Source: Escherichia coli
GTDB taxonomy: Bacteria; Pseudomonadota; Gammaproteobacteria; Enterobacterales; Enterobacteriaceae
Direction: 5' to 3' (one strand)
DNA: 64,000 nucleotides
NCBI RefSeq assembly: GCF_036507355.1
Contig: NZ_AP027877.1
Position numbers: made by a program. This document shows, one piece after another, positions 28,201 through 34,200 of the stretch. Position 1 is the stretch's first letter, and every line of letters starts with the position of its first letter.

Positions 28201-31200
28201 CCAACGCTGAAACGAGACAAGTATAATCGTACAAATTAGCGCCACAATTGTCACGATAACCCCGACGCCTGGATCTGTCATCGGTGTTGGAGATATCAGA
28301 TGTTGAATACCCGTCAAAAACAGGAATAGTGCTGAACCGGAGATAAACATACTTTGCGCCAGCGCCGCGAGGGACTCAGCTTTACCGTGACCAAACGAGT
28401 GATTATCGTCGGCAGGTTGCAGGGAATATCGCACCACCAGTAAATTCGTCAACGACGCGCCGATATCCACCAGCGAATCCACCAGCGCGGCGAGAATACT
28501 CACCGACCCGGTATACCACCATGCAAAAATTTTAATCAGCAATAGCAGCGAAGCCATCGCCGTCGCAGCAATCGCCGCCCGACTGACCAGCCGTCCATAA
28601 GATTGATTCATAAATACTCCCGCTATCAACTGACGCTAGTATAACGGAAGCAAATCATCTGCAATGCATTAAGCAGCAGGCAAATTGAGGATAAAAAAAA
28701 CCCCCACATCATGTGGGGGAAGACAGGGATGGTGTCACAAAAAAGCACCTAACCTGATGATATAAATGGATTTATGTCAACCGCTGTCCACATAGCGTCC
28801 ACATCGTTCAGCGTCCGTTTAATCGGACGCTTTTAAATTTTTATTTTTCCCAGCAGAAAAATTAGCTTTCCCGCTGTTTTGCAACTCAACAAGAGGAGAT
28901 AACCGTCGGTAAACAGCCAAAAGTATCTTTAACTGAACCAGTTCATCTGCCCCCGATAGTTGAACCAAGTTTTTACGTTGTTCTTCACTAAGTGCCATCA
29001 CAGATTCAAGTGATTTAACTGCGTCAGAAACAAGTTCAATCTCTTTAATTTGATTCTGTATACGCAGCTTCTCTGATTTCAACTTTGCCCATTCTCTTTG
29101 TCGATATGTACGCATCACCTGATCGTAAACTTTGTTGGCAGCCAGAATACTTCCACCAACAGCAGTAACTAACTCAGCAATCTGCCAAGAGATATCAATA
29201 AGAGCAGACAATTCAATAAAGCCAGGAGAGGCATACTGAATTTTTTTCACTACAGGACGTAAATCTGGTGGAGTCGCACTGTAAGCCCCTCTAAAAAAGT
29301 TCACCACACTGTGCCCACCCTCCCAAGGCATTGTTGAATATCCTCTTGATCCTCCTTTTAGGCGCTGAATTTACAATCCAAGTGCAACAAAAAAAGAAGT
29401 ACTCATCAACTAGAATATAATTTTGTTTCCACACAAAAACCACTTCCAAATGATGAGTACTTCCTACCGACATCTTACAATAAACGAGCGAGAAAAGATA
29501 ATGATTTTACTCGCACAGGGCAAAAAACAAGCAGAAATTGCCAAAGCACTGGGACGTAGCTCCAGCACCATTTCTCGCGAGCTGAAACGACACGCTCTAG
29601 AAAGCTACAGTGCAACGAACGCACAAAACAGCTATTTGAAGCATCGTCAAAATAGCAAAGCACAGCGCAAATTAGAGCAGCCTGAATATTTCAATTTGGT
29701 GCAAGAAAAGTTTCTGACAGAAAACTGGTCGCCCGAACAAATCAGCGCACGATTAAAATTGGAAAAATCTGAATTATCCATTAGTTATTCAACCATTTAT
29801 CGTGGTATTTATTCAGGGTTGTTTGATATAGGCGAACGCAAAGCCAGTCGCAAACTGCGCCACAAAGGCAAAACACGGCATACAAAAAATCATCATGAAA
29901 AACGTGGCAAAATTCAGATATCCAACCATTTGAACGACCGTCCCATTTCGGCGCAAAATCGCAGTCGCTTTGGACATTGGGAAGCCGATACCGTACTGGG
30001 TAAAGCGGGTGGAGCTTGTTTGCTGACGCTGACGGAACGCAAAAGTCGTTTTGAGTTGGTGAAGAAAATTCCTGCCAAAAAAGCCGAAGCAGTCCAAAAA
30101 GCCATGATTGAATTGCTGGATTCACATATATTGCGGTCAATTACGCCAGACCGTGGTAAAGAATTTGCCCAACATCGTTTGGTAACAGAAGCACTGGGTG
30201 TAGAATTTTACTTCCCCGAGCCGCATCAACCGTGGACACGGGGAACGAATGAAAATACAAATGGGTTACTTCGTGAATACTTTCCGAAGCACCAAGACAT
30301 CAATCAGTGGAGCGAAGTTGATATTCAACAGGTGATCAATAAACTGAATTTACGACCACGTAAATGTTTAGGTTGGAAAACACCTTATGAAGTTTACTTC
30401 AAAAAATCGTTGCACTTGGTTTGACAATTCAAGGCCATAAAAAAAACCATATAGCTGCAAATACTCTTTCGTTAAGACCGCGAAATCAGCTAACTCCCAA
30501 CGATTATCAAGCTCAATTATAACTTTTTCCATTTTCCACCAACCTGTCCAACTTTAAAGATTGACTTTTAAGTATATGATAAACATAGTTTATTAAACGT
30601 GATCCACTACTTTTAATGAAGAATATTCCCCAAAACAGAAAGCCCCTCGACTGAGGGGCTTTCTGTTTGTAATTACATCCACATAATTTGCTGCCCTGAC
30701 GGCAACGGGTGCGGTCTTACGGCGTGGACTTCTCCCGGCTTGTCCAGGGTAATGACATTTTCTTTGTTCATGGTTTTCTCACTTCTGAATCAGGGTTAAC
30801 CGGCCAGCCAGGCTGACCGGATGAAAATCACAGGCCGATATTGCGGCGGTGTTGCTCCAGCCGGTCGACGCCGTTCACCTTCTCAATCATGTTGATGGTG
30901 TCAATTTCGACCAGCTCCTTACCGTCCATCGTCAGCCGGAAATAACCCATTTTTCACCGGCACGAGCCTTCGGTTTGCAAGGATCACGCAATTCAATAAT
31001 TGGTAATTTATTTGCCTTCACCATTTCACTGACGGCTGTCTTTGGCTTCCCTAATAAATCAGCAAATTTATCCACATGAACCGCATCAAGCGGATACTGA
31101 ATCACATAATTTTCAGCGTCCATATATGGTACCCTCATAGGATCCAGCCCTTTCTAAACCACTCAAAACCGTTTAGACGCTGGTTTATTCTCAAATCAAT

Positions 31201-34200
31201 GGAACCTATATAGGTTCCAGTTTTGAGGGAATTTAGTCCCTATATAGGCACCATGTCAAATGAAATTAAGCGAAAAGATTAAGGCCTTGCGTGAGGCTGA
31301 AGGGCTAAGCCAATCAAAATTCTGTGAAATCATAGAGTTACCGCTAAGCACACTTAAAAAATATGAAGGAGGAAACTTTGAACCCGGTGGCACAGCTTTG
31401 CTAAAAATCACTATGCATCCCACATTCCAAAAATATGCTCTATGGCTTATGACAGATAAAACCGCGCCGGACGCAGGACAAATCGCACCGGCTCTCGCGC
31501 ACATTGGGCCAGAGTCAACAGAGTCCAACCACTCCGAGAAAAGGATTGGATAACTCTATATAAAGATTACATTTTCACCATTTGCTACCAAGATGGTGAA
31601 TACAGCGCCGGAGGGCTTTCTTATGGCAATTAAGAAGCTCGATGATGGTCGCTATGAAGTGGACATTAGACCTCGCGGTCGCGACGGAAAACGCATCCGC
31701 AGGAAATTCGAAAGAAAAGCTGAAGCACTAGCATTTGAGCGATACACAATCGCCAATGCCAGTCAGAAAGAATGGGGAGGCCAGCGAGCAGACCGCCGGA
31801 CTTTGAGTGAGTTGCTGGACATCTGGTGGAAATATCACGGGCAAAACCACGAGCATGGAACAAAAGAGTTTAATCATCTACTCAAAACCATCAGCGGCAT
31901 AGGTGATATACCAGTGAACAGGATGAGCAAAAGGGCTTTGATGGATTATCGTTCCATGCGACTACGTGATGGTATCAGTGCCGCAACGATAAACCGTGAC
32001 ATGTACCGATTATCCGGCATGTTCACAAAATTAATTCAATTGGATGAATTTTCCGGGCAACACCCAATTCACGGACTGCCGCCACTGGCGGAGGCCAACC
32101 CTGAAATGACGTTCCTGGAAAAAGCAGAAATCGAAAAACTGTTAAATGTTTTGGCTGGTGATGACTTACTTGTCGCGCTTTTATGTCTGAGCACTGGAGG
32201 AAGATGGACGGAAGTTGCCACGCTAAAACCAGCACAGATTACAAATTGCAGGGTTACCTTCCTGAAAACCAAAAACGGTAAAAAGCGAACCGTGCCGATT
32301 TCTGAGGGACTGGAGAAAAAAGTTAAAGAGGAGGCCAGCGCCAAATTATTCAAAGTTGATTATGAGAAATTTTGCGGGATTTTACGCAGAGTGAAACCTG
32401 ATATACCACCCAATCAGGCAACCCATATCCTGCGGCATACATTCGCAAGCCATTTCATGATGAATGGGGGCAATATAATCGCACTGCAACAGATTCTGGG
32501 ACATGCGAGCATTCAGCAGACGATGGCCTATGCGCACCTTGCGCCTGACTATCTGCAAAATGCCGTCGCTCTGAATCCACTAAAAGGCGGAGTGACGTTA
32601 TAAATTTCCCCCTCTGAGTGTCCACATAGTGTCCACACTCAAGAAATTTTGAAACCGCTCCAAACCCTTACAGCTTTCGATAAGTACCTGTTTTTACTTT
32701 TGATTGCATGTAAGTAATTGATAAAAAAAACCCCCACATCATGTGGGGGAAGACAGGGATGGTGTCTATGGCAAGGAAAACAGGGTTTACTACTGGGAAC
32801 GTGAGTTGCTACTACTCAATAGCTTCAACGATGAACTTTTTTGCCATTGCGTCACGTCGCGCAACTGCTCCATTCGTTGTTGATGTTTCTCGTTTAAAAC
32901 CGCTTGCTGCTCCGGCGTTAACAGGCGATACATTTGGTTGCGGACTTTTGCCATCTCAACCTGACGAGCAATTTGCTCATTCGCCATTTTTTCTGCCTGT
33001 GCGCGCACAGCGTTTTCATCAAAATTTTCTGCGGTGACAAGGCGATGCATTGTCTCCAGTTCGCTAACATTAACAGGAGGCTGTTCGTGCCGGGCCTGTT
33101 GCATAAGATCTCGCATCTGCTGACGCTGATGTTCGGTTAAACTTATGCCGTCGAACATATGGCTCTGCGTACTGCGCTGCGTAAGTTCTTCACCCGGATG
33201 CCAGTTATCGCCTGAACCGACTTCAGCAGCGTGGCTTAATGAACTGACTGCCAGCGTTGAGGCCATGACGGCAGTGGTAACTATGCGCATCATTTGCTCC
33301 CAAAATCTTTCTGTCGCGATTCAACGATAGAGAGTTTACGATTCAGGCTGCAAACATGCGTCAGGGGGTGTAAAACAACGTAAAGTCATGGATTAGCGAC
33401 GTCTGATGACGTAATTTCTGCCTCGGAGGTATTTAAACAATGAATAAAATCCTGTTAGTTGATGATGACCGAGAGCTGACTTCCCTATTAAAGGAGCTGC
33501 TCGAGATGGAAGGCTTCAACGTGATTGTTGCCCACGATGGGGAACAGGCGCTTGATCTTCTGGACGACAGCATTGATTTACTTTTGCTTGACGTAATGAT
33601 GCCGAAGAAAAATGGTATCGACACATTAAAAGCACTTCGCCAGACACACCAGACGCCTGTCATTATGTTGACGGCGCGCGGCAGTGAACTTGATCGCGTT
33701 CTCGGCCTTGAGCTGGGCGCAGATGACTATCTCCCGAAACCGTTTAATGATCGTGAGCTGGTGGCACGTATTCGCGCGATCCTGCGCCGTTCGCACTGGA
33801 GCGAGCAACAGCAAAACAACGACAACGGTTCACCGACACTGGAAGTTGATGCCTTAGTGCTGAATCCAGGCCGTCAGGAAGCCAGCTTCGACGGGCAAAC
33901 GCTGGAGTTAACCGGTACTGAGTTTACCCTGCTCTATTTGCTGGCACAGCATCTGGGTCAGGTGGTTTCCCGTGAACATTTAAGCCAGGAAGTGCTGGGC
34001 AAACGCCTGACGCCTTTCGACCGCGCTATCGATATGCACATTTCCAACCTGCGTCGTAAACTGCCGGATCGTAAAGATGGTCACCCGTGGTTTAAAACCT
34101 TGCGTGGTCGCGGCTACCTGATGGTTTCTGCTTCATGATAGGCAGCTTAACCGCGCGCATCTTCGCCATCTTCTGGCTGACGCTGGCGCTGGTGTTGATG

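What the first reader, a model, noticed from the sequence alone, without database searches (positions are those of the whole stretch)
28785..32640. Repeated tgtccaca half-sites just inside both ends of the element (candidate integrase arm sites)
Seen: tgtccacatagcgtccacat at 28785-28804 and tgtccacatagtgtccacac at 32619-32638, same orientation, each a tandem pair of (t)gtccaca, lying ~50 and ~80 bp inside the 47-bp repeats. Inference: these look like arm-type binding sites for the tyrosine integrase, which would mean the att regions are still recombination-competent.
Basis: inference. Interest (0 to 1): 0.35.

Follow-up and report, generated by a model that had tools for sequence, protein, structure and literature searches.

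The report
P2-type integrase arm sites, prophage remnant
The repeated TGTCCACA pairs are the well-known arm-type binding sites of a P2-family phage integrase, sitting at the two ends of a 4-kb decayed prophage inserted next to the E. coli cpxP gene. This is an ordinary, already described feature.

Summary
TGTCCACAtagCGTCCACA (28785-28803) and TGTCCACAtagTGTCCACA (32619-32637) lie on the same strand, 48 and 81 bp inside a perfect 47-bp direct repeat.

The element (28690-32766) is a remnant of a WPhi/L-413C-type P2-like prophage at the known cpxP-fieF attachment site. Joining its two ends rebuilds a 233-bp attP that differs from phage L-413C at 4 positions. None of these falls in the octamers, the core or the predicted IHF site.

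The motif is the reverse complement of the published P2-type arm consensus tgTGGaCa. It coincides with the Int "P arm" and "P' arm" features annotated on phage P2's RefSeq record. The pairs recur at both arms in P2-type phages whose integrases are 52-99% identical, while the spacers diverge. A 186-type phage lacks them.

So the arm-site reading is supported. "Still recombination-competent" holds only for the cis sites. Int is intact, but cox, the excision directionality factor, is truncated before the C-terminal helices that are essential in P2 Cox. Autonomous excision is therefore unlikely.

Novelty: already known. Side notes: the 47-bp core is the 3' part of the CpxQ sRNA, and ISApl1 splits a PD-T4-10_B-like cargo gene.

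The parts
28690..28736 (.). fieF-proximal copy of the 47-bp att core (attR, P-O-B' junction). On the minus strand it is a 5'-truncated copy of CpxQ with its terminator hairpin.
   Evidence: 100% direct repeat. Identical to the WPhi and L-413C attP core. Empty-site genomes carry a single copy.
28750..28762 (-). Predicted IHF site TATCATCAGGTTA (1 mismatch to WATCAANNNNTTR) between the core and the P arm.
   Evidence: Consensus scan. Same position and strand as the IHF feature annotated in P2 attP. Prediction only.
28785..28804 (+). P arm: two direct Int arm-type octamers, TGTCCACA and CGTCCACA, 11 bp apart.
   Evidence: Identical to the L-413C and WPhi P arm. Homologous to the P2 'P arm' protein_bind feature.
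28819..29363 (-). 3' part of a prophage cargo gene (PD-T4-10_B-like) lying between the P arm and the ogr terminator.
   Evidence: ORF list. The reconstructed 213-aa product hits PADLOC PD-T4-10_B at 1.3e-34. The uninterrupted junction is seen in strain TW14425.
29364..30434 (+). ISApl1 (IS30 family) inserted in the cargo gene.
   Evidence: 100% identity over 1071 bp to an annotated ISApl1 (H36). Terminal inverted repeats (I1). Transposase domains. Single copy in the window.
30435..30532 (-). 5' part of the interrupted cargo gene.
   Evidence: Reading frame is continuous with 28819-29363 once ISApl1 is removed.
30633..30740 (-). ogr terminator hairpin (30633-30668) and the 3' end of ogr, fused to a gpE N-terminus.
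   Evidence: Same sequence as the P2 ogr 3' end and terminator. Inverted repeat I5.
30735..30944 (-). Fragment holding the tail-gene FII 3' end and E 5' start, left by internal deletions.
   Evidence: 99% identity to P2 19257-19466, annotated FII/E.
30932..31138 (-). Truncated cox. Identical to L-413C Cox up to ...GEKWV, then ISG-stop. The last ~30 residues are lost.
   Evidence: Translation comparison. Pfam Phage_Cox matches only profile positions 7-57 of 87.
31260..31553 (+). C-type immunity repressor (97 aa, HTH), apparently intact.
   Evidence: The region 30944-32770 is 99.0% identical to L-413C without gaps.
31623..32603 (+). Intact P2-family tyrosine integrase (326 aa from the annotated start).
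   Evidence: 99% identity to L-413C Int, 98% to WPhi Int, 52% to P2 Int. Pfam Int_N and Phage_integrase.
32619..32638 (+). P' arm: two direct Int arm-type octamers, TGTCCACA and TGTCCACA, 11 bp apart, 15 bp after the int stop codon.
   Evidence: Identical in L-413C and WPhi. Homologous to the P2 'P' arm' protein_bind feature.
32639..32719 (.). Spacer corresponding to the Cox-binding region of P2 attP/attL. A perfect IHF consensus lies at 32711-32723 (minus strand).
   Evidence: Position by analogy with the P2 annotation. Three substitutions against L-413C. IHF scan. Cox binding was not tested.
32720..32766 (.). cpxP-proximal copy of the 47-bp att core (attL, B-O-P' junction). On the minus strand it is the 3' two-thirds of CpxQ and the cpxP terminator.
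   Evidence: CpxQ description from PMC9438474.

Best explanation
The two TGTCCACA pairs are the P and P' arm-type binding sites of a heterobivalent P2-family tyrosine integrase. Integration separated them onto the two prophage junctions. The element is a 4-kb remnant of a WPhi/L-413C-type P2-like prophage inserted in the terminator of cpxP/CpxQ, between cpxP and fieF. In the circular phage the order is: int stop, P' arm, Cox-binding spacer, 47-bp core, IHF site, P arm, then the ogr side. The following mechanism is inferred from what is established for P2 and lambda. The small N-terminal domain of Int binds the octamers, two per arm and one helical turn apart. The core-binding and catalytic domains of the same protomers bind the core. 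IHF bends the P arm, and for excision Cox bends the P' side, so that arm-bound Int can bridge to the core sites and exchange strands. In this remnant the cis sites and Int are intact but Cox is truncated. The sites are therefore probably usable substrates, while the element cannot direct its own excision.
For: 1. Sequence match. [quoted passage not shown] Its reverse complement is TGTCCACA. Three of the four octamers are exact and one differs only at the first, weakly conserved base.
2. Position. The P2 RefSeq record annotates the protein_bind features Int 'P arm', IHF, Int 'attP core', Cox and Int 'P' arm' in the same order. Its arm sequences are TGTCCACAcagTGTCCACA and CGTCCACAcatTGACCACA.
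3. The reconstructed attP (233 bp) is gap-free against L-413C with 4 mismatches. None lies in the octamers, the core or the predicted IHF site.
4. Phylogenetic footprint across five attPs that share this core (window, L-413C, WPhi, SI7, SEN4). Invariant positions are P' arm 16/20, core 44/47 and P arm 11/20, against 22/81 and 16/48 in the spacers.
5. Pairs occur at both arms in P2, SI7, SEN4, 11W and P88_4B11 (Int 52-83% identical). The 186-type phage Cartapus has none.
6. Protein-site covariation. SEN4 has GTCTACA or ACTACA in all four octamers, and its Int N-domain differs at R16W among other positions.
7. The window Int N-domain is nearly identical to that of P2, although the whole proteins are only 52% identical.
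8. In IMG/VR, 40 of 120 stretches holding the exact tandem pair also encode a P2-family Int. In 37 of those the pair is within 60 bp of the int 3' end and on the int strand.
9. Host site. WPhi is listed at cpxP-fieF (PMC3032704). Empty E. coli sites carry exactly one core copy.
Against: No binding or recombination data exist for this locus; everything rests on homology and comparison. Footprinting was done on P2, not on WPhi-type attP, as far as I could read here, because the primary papers were not available. Cox is truncated, so current use of the sites in excision is doubtful. The P arm is less strictly conserved across distant relatives (11/20 invariant).
Confidence: 0.93

Rival explanations
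1. The pairs are chance repeats with no sequence-specific role.
For: The single heptamer is not enriched in the window: 5 found against 6.4 expected.
Against: The tandem pair is expected 0.0005 times per window and occurs twice, on the same strand, flanking the att core. The pairs are conserved as islands in divergent attPs and lie next to int in 40 IMG/VR loci.
Confidence: 0.01
2. The repeats are operators for the immunity repressor C or for Cox, or a regulatory element at the int 3' end, rather than Int arm sites.
For: P2-family C and Cox proteins also recognise short direct repeats. Cox binds within attP between the core and the P' arm (PMC3936717). In P2 the P' pair overlaps the int coding end.
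Against: The P2 record assigns these exact positions to Int and places Cox binding in the spacer. The motif is shared by phages with different C and Cox immunity types (P2 versus WPhi) but similar Int N-domains. The switch region of this element carries a different repeat, CCTATATAGG (I9). The motif is kept whether it lies inside int (P2) or after the stop codon (this element), which argues for a DNA-level Int site.
Confidence: 0.03
3. They are true arm sites by descent but are now inert relics. The remnant is fixed in the chromosome and the sites no longer take part in any recombination.
For: cox is truncated before the equivalents of the P2 Cox residues R73, R78, W81 and W84, whose alanine substitutions abolish function. 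The element has lost its replication and almost all structural genes and carries an IS insertion.
Against: The sites, the core and int show no decay: 4 spacer substitutions in 233 bp and Int 99% identical to functional phages. WPhi-type prophages occupy this site in 791 of 5426 complete E. coli genomes, so a related phage supplying Cox in trans is plausible.
Confidence: 0.4

Closest known systems
attP of phages WPhi and L-413C (Peduovirus; cpxP-fieF attachment site)
   Same: Identical 47-bp core, identical P' and P arm octamer pairs, and the same spacing. Only 4 of 233 positions differ from L-413C. Int is 98-99% identical. The host site is the same.
   Different: Here attP is split into attL and attR of a 4-kb remnant. 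Beyond the P arm the sequence diverges into a cargo gene carrying ISApl1, rather than running directly into the ogr terminator. cox is truncated.
Bacteriophage P2 attP (P arm, IHF, core, Cox region, P' arm; annotated in NC_001895)
   Same: Same octamer, same tandem arrangement with 11-bp spacing, same order of elements, same orientation on both arms, and a nearly identical Int N-terminal domain.
   Different: The core sequence and host site differ. Int is only 52% identical overall. The P2 P' pair lies inside the int coding end, whereas here it starts 15 bp after the stop codon. The P' arm-to-core distance is also different.
Phage lambda attP arm-type sites (P1, P2, P'1-P'3)
   Same: Same principle, from general knowledge. 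A heterobivalent integrase binds distal arm-type sites through a small N-terminal domain and core-type sites through its other domains. IHF and an excisionase bend the DNA between them.
   Different: The arm sequence is unrelated and the number of sites differs: two pairs here against five sites in lambda. The directionality factor is Cox, which is also the lysis-lysogeny switch repressor.
Phage 186-type attP arm sites (consensus tgccGCCActt)
   Same: Same family of phages and the same architecture of direct repeats on both sides of the core (PMC3448106).
   Different: The motif differs. No match with up to 2 mismatches is found in either att region. The Int N-domain has W/E/Y instead of Y/D/R at the discriminating positions.

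Membership tests
P2-type Int arm-binding sites | Octamer matching the consensus tgTGGaCa (TGTCCACA on the other strand) | tested here: met
   Three octamers are exact. One is CGTCCACA, differing at the weakly conserved first base. Consensus from PMC3448106.
P2-type Int arm-binding sites | [quoted passage not shown] | tested here: met
   Two octamers 48 bp from one core copy and two 81 bp from the other, all on the + strand. In the reconstructed attP they flank the core.
P2-type Int arm-binding sites | Same positions as the experimentally assigned P and P' arms of P2: the P' pair at the int 3' end, and the P pair beyond an IHF site on the ogr side | tested here: met
   NC_001895 protein_bind features compared with the window. 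An IHF-like site lies at 28750-28762.
P2-type Int arm-binding sites | Cognate integrase with a P2-type N-terminal arm-binding domain (Y, D, R at the positions that discriminate it from the 186 type) | tested here: met
   MAIKKLDDGRYEVDIRP is identical to P2. The 186-type Cartapus has W/E/Y. Discriminating positions from PMC3448106.
P2-type Int arm-binding sites | Physical binding by Int (footprint or EMSA) | not testable with these tools
   Needs purified protein. Only the P2 annotation stands in for it.
WPhi-type attachment system (cpxP-fieF) | Core identical to the WPhi/L-413C attP core and to a single-copy attB between cpxP and fieF | tested here: met
   PMC3032704 Table 2.
186-type arm sites | Direct repeats matching tgccGCCActt | tested here: not met
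   No match with up to 2 mismatches in 28690-28860 or 32560-32766.
Excision-competent P2-like prophage | Intact integrase | tested here: met
   Full length, 99% identical to L-413C Int, with both Pfam domains.
Excision-competent P2-like prophage | Intact Cox directionality factor | tested here: not met
   Truncated after GEKWV. It lacks the region equivalent to P2 Cox residues 58-91, including W81 and W84, which are required for function.
Excision-competent P2-like prophage | Demonstrated attL x attR recombination | not testable with these tools
   Requires PCR or genetic assays.

The most novel reading that the evidence does not exclude
The remnant keeps an intact int and undecayed attL and attR but has no functional Cox. 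It could be a helper-dependent mobilisable island that excises only when a WPhi-type phage supplies Cox in trans, carrying its PD-T4-10_B-like cargo with it. Such phages or their remnants occupy this site in about 15% of complete E. coli genomes. Separately, the 5'-truncated second copy of CpxQ at 28690-28736, with its terminator, could be released from prophage read-through transcripts and act as a CpxQ-like sRNA or as a decoy.
Probability: 0.1. Interest if true: 0.35.

Novelty: already known. Interest (0 to 1): 0.1.

Why it matters
It matters little beyond correct annotation. The sites mark exact prophage boundaries and show that the cis machinery of a decayed P2-like element can outlast its directionality factor. 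Two minor points are useful. The WPhi-type attB is the highly conserved CpxQ sRNA and cpxP terminator, which explains why the same core serves E. coli and Salmonella phages. The remnant also records an ISApl1 insertion into a candidate anti-phage defence gene.

Tried and rejected
- Int-based retrieval from IMG/VR gave 80 loci. Nearly all were cut at the int stop codon, so they were useless for attP. I used GenBank phage records instead.
- The primary papers on P2-like integration sites and on the WPhi switch (PMC1482927, PMC113030) are not held, and the supplementary figure S4 of PMC3448106 is not held. The footprinting evidence for P2 is therefore cited through the RefSeq annotation and the review-level text.
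- Rfam has no CpxQ match at gathering score. It gives only sub-threshold Hrs1 hits, on the opposite strand.
- The 186-type arm motif is absent.
- The chance explanation and the C/Cox-operator explanation were rejected (see rivals).
- No paper was found that links CpxQ to prophage integration.
- Cox boxes in the 32639-32719 spacer were not identified, because I had no WPhi Cox consensus to test.
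Full report
**Observation.**
- The first is TGTCCACATAGCGTCCACAT at 28785-28804.
- The second is TGTCCACATAGTGTCCACAC at 32619-32638.
- Each is a tandem pair of (T/C)GTCCACA octamers, 11 bp start to start.
- The heptamer alone is not over-represented in the window (5 copies, 6.4 expected), but four of the five copies are these.
- The tandem arrangement is expected about 0.0005 times per window and occurs twice.
- The pairs lie 48 bp and 81 bp inside a perfect 47-nt direct repeat at 28690-28736 and 32720-32766.

**What the element is.** The repeats bracket a 4,077-bp insertion between fieF (27709-28629, minus) and cpxP (32790-33293, minus).
- It encodes an intact tyrosine integrase (31623-32603). 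This is 99% identical to Int of Yersinia/E. coli phage L-413C, 98% to Int of WPhi, and 52% to P2 Int.
- It has a C-type HTH repressor (31260-31553) and a divergently transcribed cox (31138-30932).
- From 30944 to 32770 the DNA is 99.0% identical to L-413C without gaps, and 99.6% identical to prophages at the same site in E. coli strains 52148 and TW14425.
- The rest is a patchwork. cox is fused to a 210-bp FII/E tail-gene fragment (99% to P2 19257-19466). That fragment is fused to the 3' end of ogr and its terminator. Then comes a cargo gene split by ISApl1.
- E. coli W's WPhi prophage is recorded at cpxP-fieF (PMC3032704).
- Of 5,426 complete E. coli genomes, 791 carry the int-P'arm-core-cpxP junction. 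The others match only from position 32720 onward, which is an empty attB with one core copy.

**Reconstructed attP.** Joining 32604-32766 to 28737-28806 gives a 233-bp sequence collinear with L-413C attP.
- It has four mismatches, at 32657, 32686, 32687 and 28783. None lies in the octamers, the core or the predicted IHF site.
- WPhi and L-413C carry the same two octamer pairs at the same distances from the core.

**Comparison with P2.**
[quoted passage not shown] The 186-type phages use tgccGCCActt instead (PMC3448106). TGTCCACA is the reverse complement of the P2-type consensus.
- The P2 RefSeq record annotates protein-binding features in this order: Int P arm (24293-24320), IHF (24324-24357), Int core (24356-24383), Cox (24399-24472), Int P' arm (24470-24496).
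- Read in the int-to-ogr direction, the P2 arms are TGTCCACAcagTGTCCACA and CGTCCACAcatTGACCACA. This is the same motif, spacing and orientation as here.
- By that nomenclature, 32619-32638 is the P' arm, on attL next to int. 28785-28804 is the P arm, on attR. The primary footprinting paper is Yu and Haggard-Ljungquist 1993 by my recollection; I could not read it here.

**Wider comparison.**
- In SI7 (Int 83% identical), SEN4 (67%), 11W (55%), P88_4B11 (53%) and P2, a pair of octamers lies at the int 3' end. A second pair lies beyond the core, next to a conserved AAAGGATTTAT element. The 186-type phage Cartapus (39%) has none.
- I aligned the five attPs that share this core and counted invariant positions. 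The P' arm had 16/20, the core 44/47 and the P arm 11/20. The two spacers had only 22/81 and 16/48.
- SEN4 carries the same C-to-T change in all four octamers (GTCTACA). Its Int N-terminal domain differs from the others at several residues, including R16W, a position proposed to discriminate arm specificity (PMC3448106).
- The window Int N-domain (MAIKKLDDGRYEVDIRP...) is essentially that of P2, although the proteins are 52% identical overall. This fits a shared arm motif combined with different cores.
- An exact-pattern scan of IMG/VR returned 120 stretches. Forty encode a P2-family Int, and in 37 of those the pair is within 60 bp of the int 3' end on the int strand.

**Mechanism.**
- Shown: sequence identity and positional homology with annotated Int arm sites, conservation as islands, and covariation with the Int N-domain.
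- Inferred from P2 and lambda biology: Int N-domains occupy the two octamers of each arm on one face of the helix. IHF bends the P arm at about 28750-28762 (TATCATCAGGTTA, one mismatch, same place and strand as the P2 IHF site). Cox assembles on the spacer 32639-32719 during excision. Arm-bound Int then bridges to the core, whose perfect inverted repeat CCCCCAC-ATCAT-GTGGGGG probably holds the core-type sites.

**Is it still recombination-competent?** In cis, it appears so: arms, core, predicted IHF site and int are undecayed. In trans, it is not self-sufficient.
- cox is identical to L-413C cox up to ...GEKWV, then reads ISG-stop, losing about 30 C-terminal residues. Pfam Phage_Cox aligns only to profile positions 7-57 of 87.
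- In P2 Cox the C-terminal helices drive the oligomerisation needed for activity. R73A, R78A, W81A and W84A abolish function (PMC3936717). The truncation removes the equivalent region; P2 GEYWV starts at residue 53.
- Autonomous excision is therefore unlikely. A co-resident or superinfecting WPhi-type phage could supply Cox.

**Novelty.** P2-type arm sites are already described, as are their presence in WPhi and L-413C and the cpxP-fieF attachment site. The finding is a correct identification of a textbook feature in a decayed prophage.

**Seen in passing.**
- The 47-bp core is, on the minus strand, the 3' two-thirds of the cpxP 3' UTR including its terminator. This is the CpxQ sRNA, about 60 nt and spanning almost the whole 3' UTR (PMC9438474; sequence). 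Integration preserves a full CpxQ next to cpxP and leaves a 5'-truncated copy next to fieF. Salmonella phages SI7 and SEN4 use the same core. I found no paper connecting CpxQ with prophage integration.
- ISApl1 (29364-30434) interrupts a 213-aa cargo gene. That gene matches the PADLOC model PD-T4-10_B (1.3e-34) and has no Pfam or PHROG family.

Noticed in passing
window 32720-32790 (minus strand) and 28690-28736: The WPhi-type att core is the 3' two-thirds plus terminator of the CpxQ sRNA (cpxP 3' UTR). Integration keeps a complete CpxQ beside cpxP and leaves a 5'-truncated second copy with its terminator beside fieF. Salmonella phages SI7 and SEN4 share this core. No paper linking CpxQ to prophage integration was found.
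   Followed up: partly
window 29364-30434: A complete ISApl1 (IS30 family), 100% identical to annotated copies and the only copy in the window. ISApl1 is, by my recollection, the element associated with mcr-1 mobilisation. It sits inside the prophage cargo gene.
   Followed up: partly
window 28819-29363 plus 30435-30532 (minus strand): The cargo gene lies between the P arm and the ogr terminator, where WPhi and L-413C have nothing. The reconstructed 213-aa product hits PADLOC PD-T4-10_B (E 1.3e-34) and has no Pfam or PHROG match. It is a candidate anti-phage defence gene, here inactivated by ISApl1. No partner A gene was seen.
   Followed up: partly
window 30633-30944: Patchwork left by internal deletions. 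Truncated cox joins an FII-3'/E-5' tail-gene fragment (99% to P2 19257-19466). That fragment is fused in frame to the last ~22 codons of ogr, followed by the ogr terminator.
   Followed up: yes
window 32711-32723 (minus strand): A perfect IHF consensus, TATCAATTACTTA, abuts the core on the P' (int) side. P2 is annotated with an IHF site only on the P side. This may be a second IHF site in WPhi-type attP and attL.
   Followed up: no
window 32723-32795 and 28693-28759 (plus strand): Rfam Hrs1 (RF02628) matches both core copies below gathering score (44.5 and 31.8 bits against 56.4), on the strand opposite to CpxQ. The model begins with an A-run followed by a hairpin, which looks like the reverse complement of a terminator. 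The family may represent a CpxQ homologue in antisense orientation.
   Followed up: no
L088 (Salmonella phage SEN4) 1682-1915 and its Int N-terminus: All four arm octamers carry GTCTACA or ACTACA instead of GTCCACA, and the Int N-domain has R16W and other changes. This is apparent co-evolution of the arm site and the arm-binding domain.
   Followed up: partly
window 31187-31254: The Pe/Pc switch region between cox and C holds repeated CCTATATAGG-type elements (inverted repeats I4 and I9). These are probably the operators of this immunity type and are unrelated to the arm motif.
   Followed up: no
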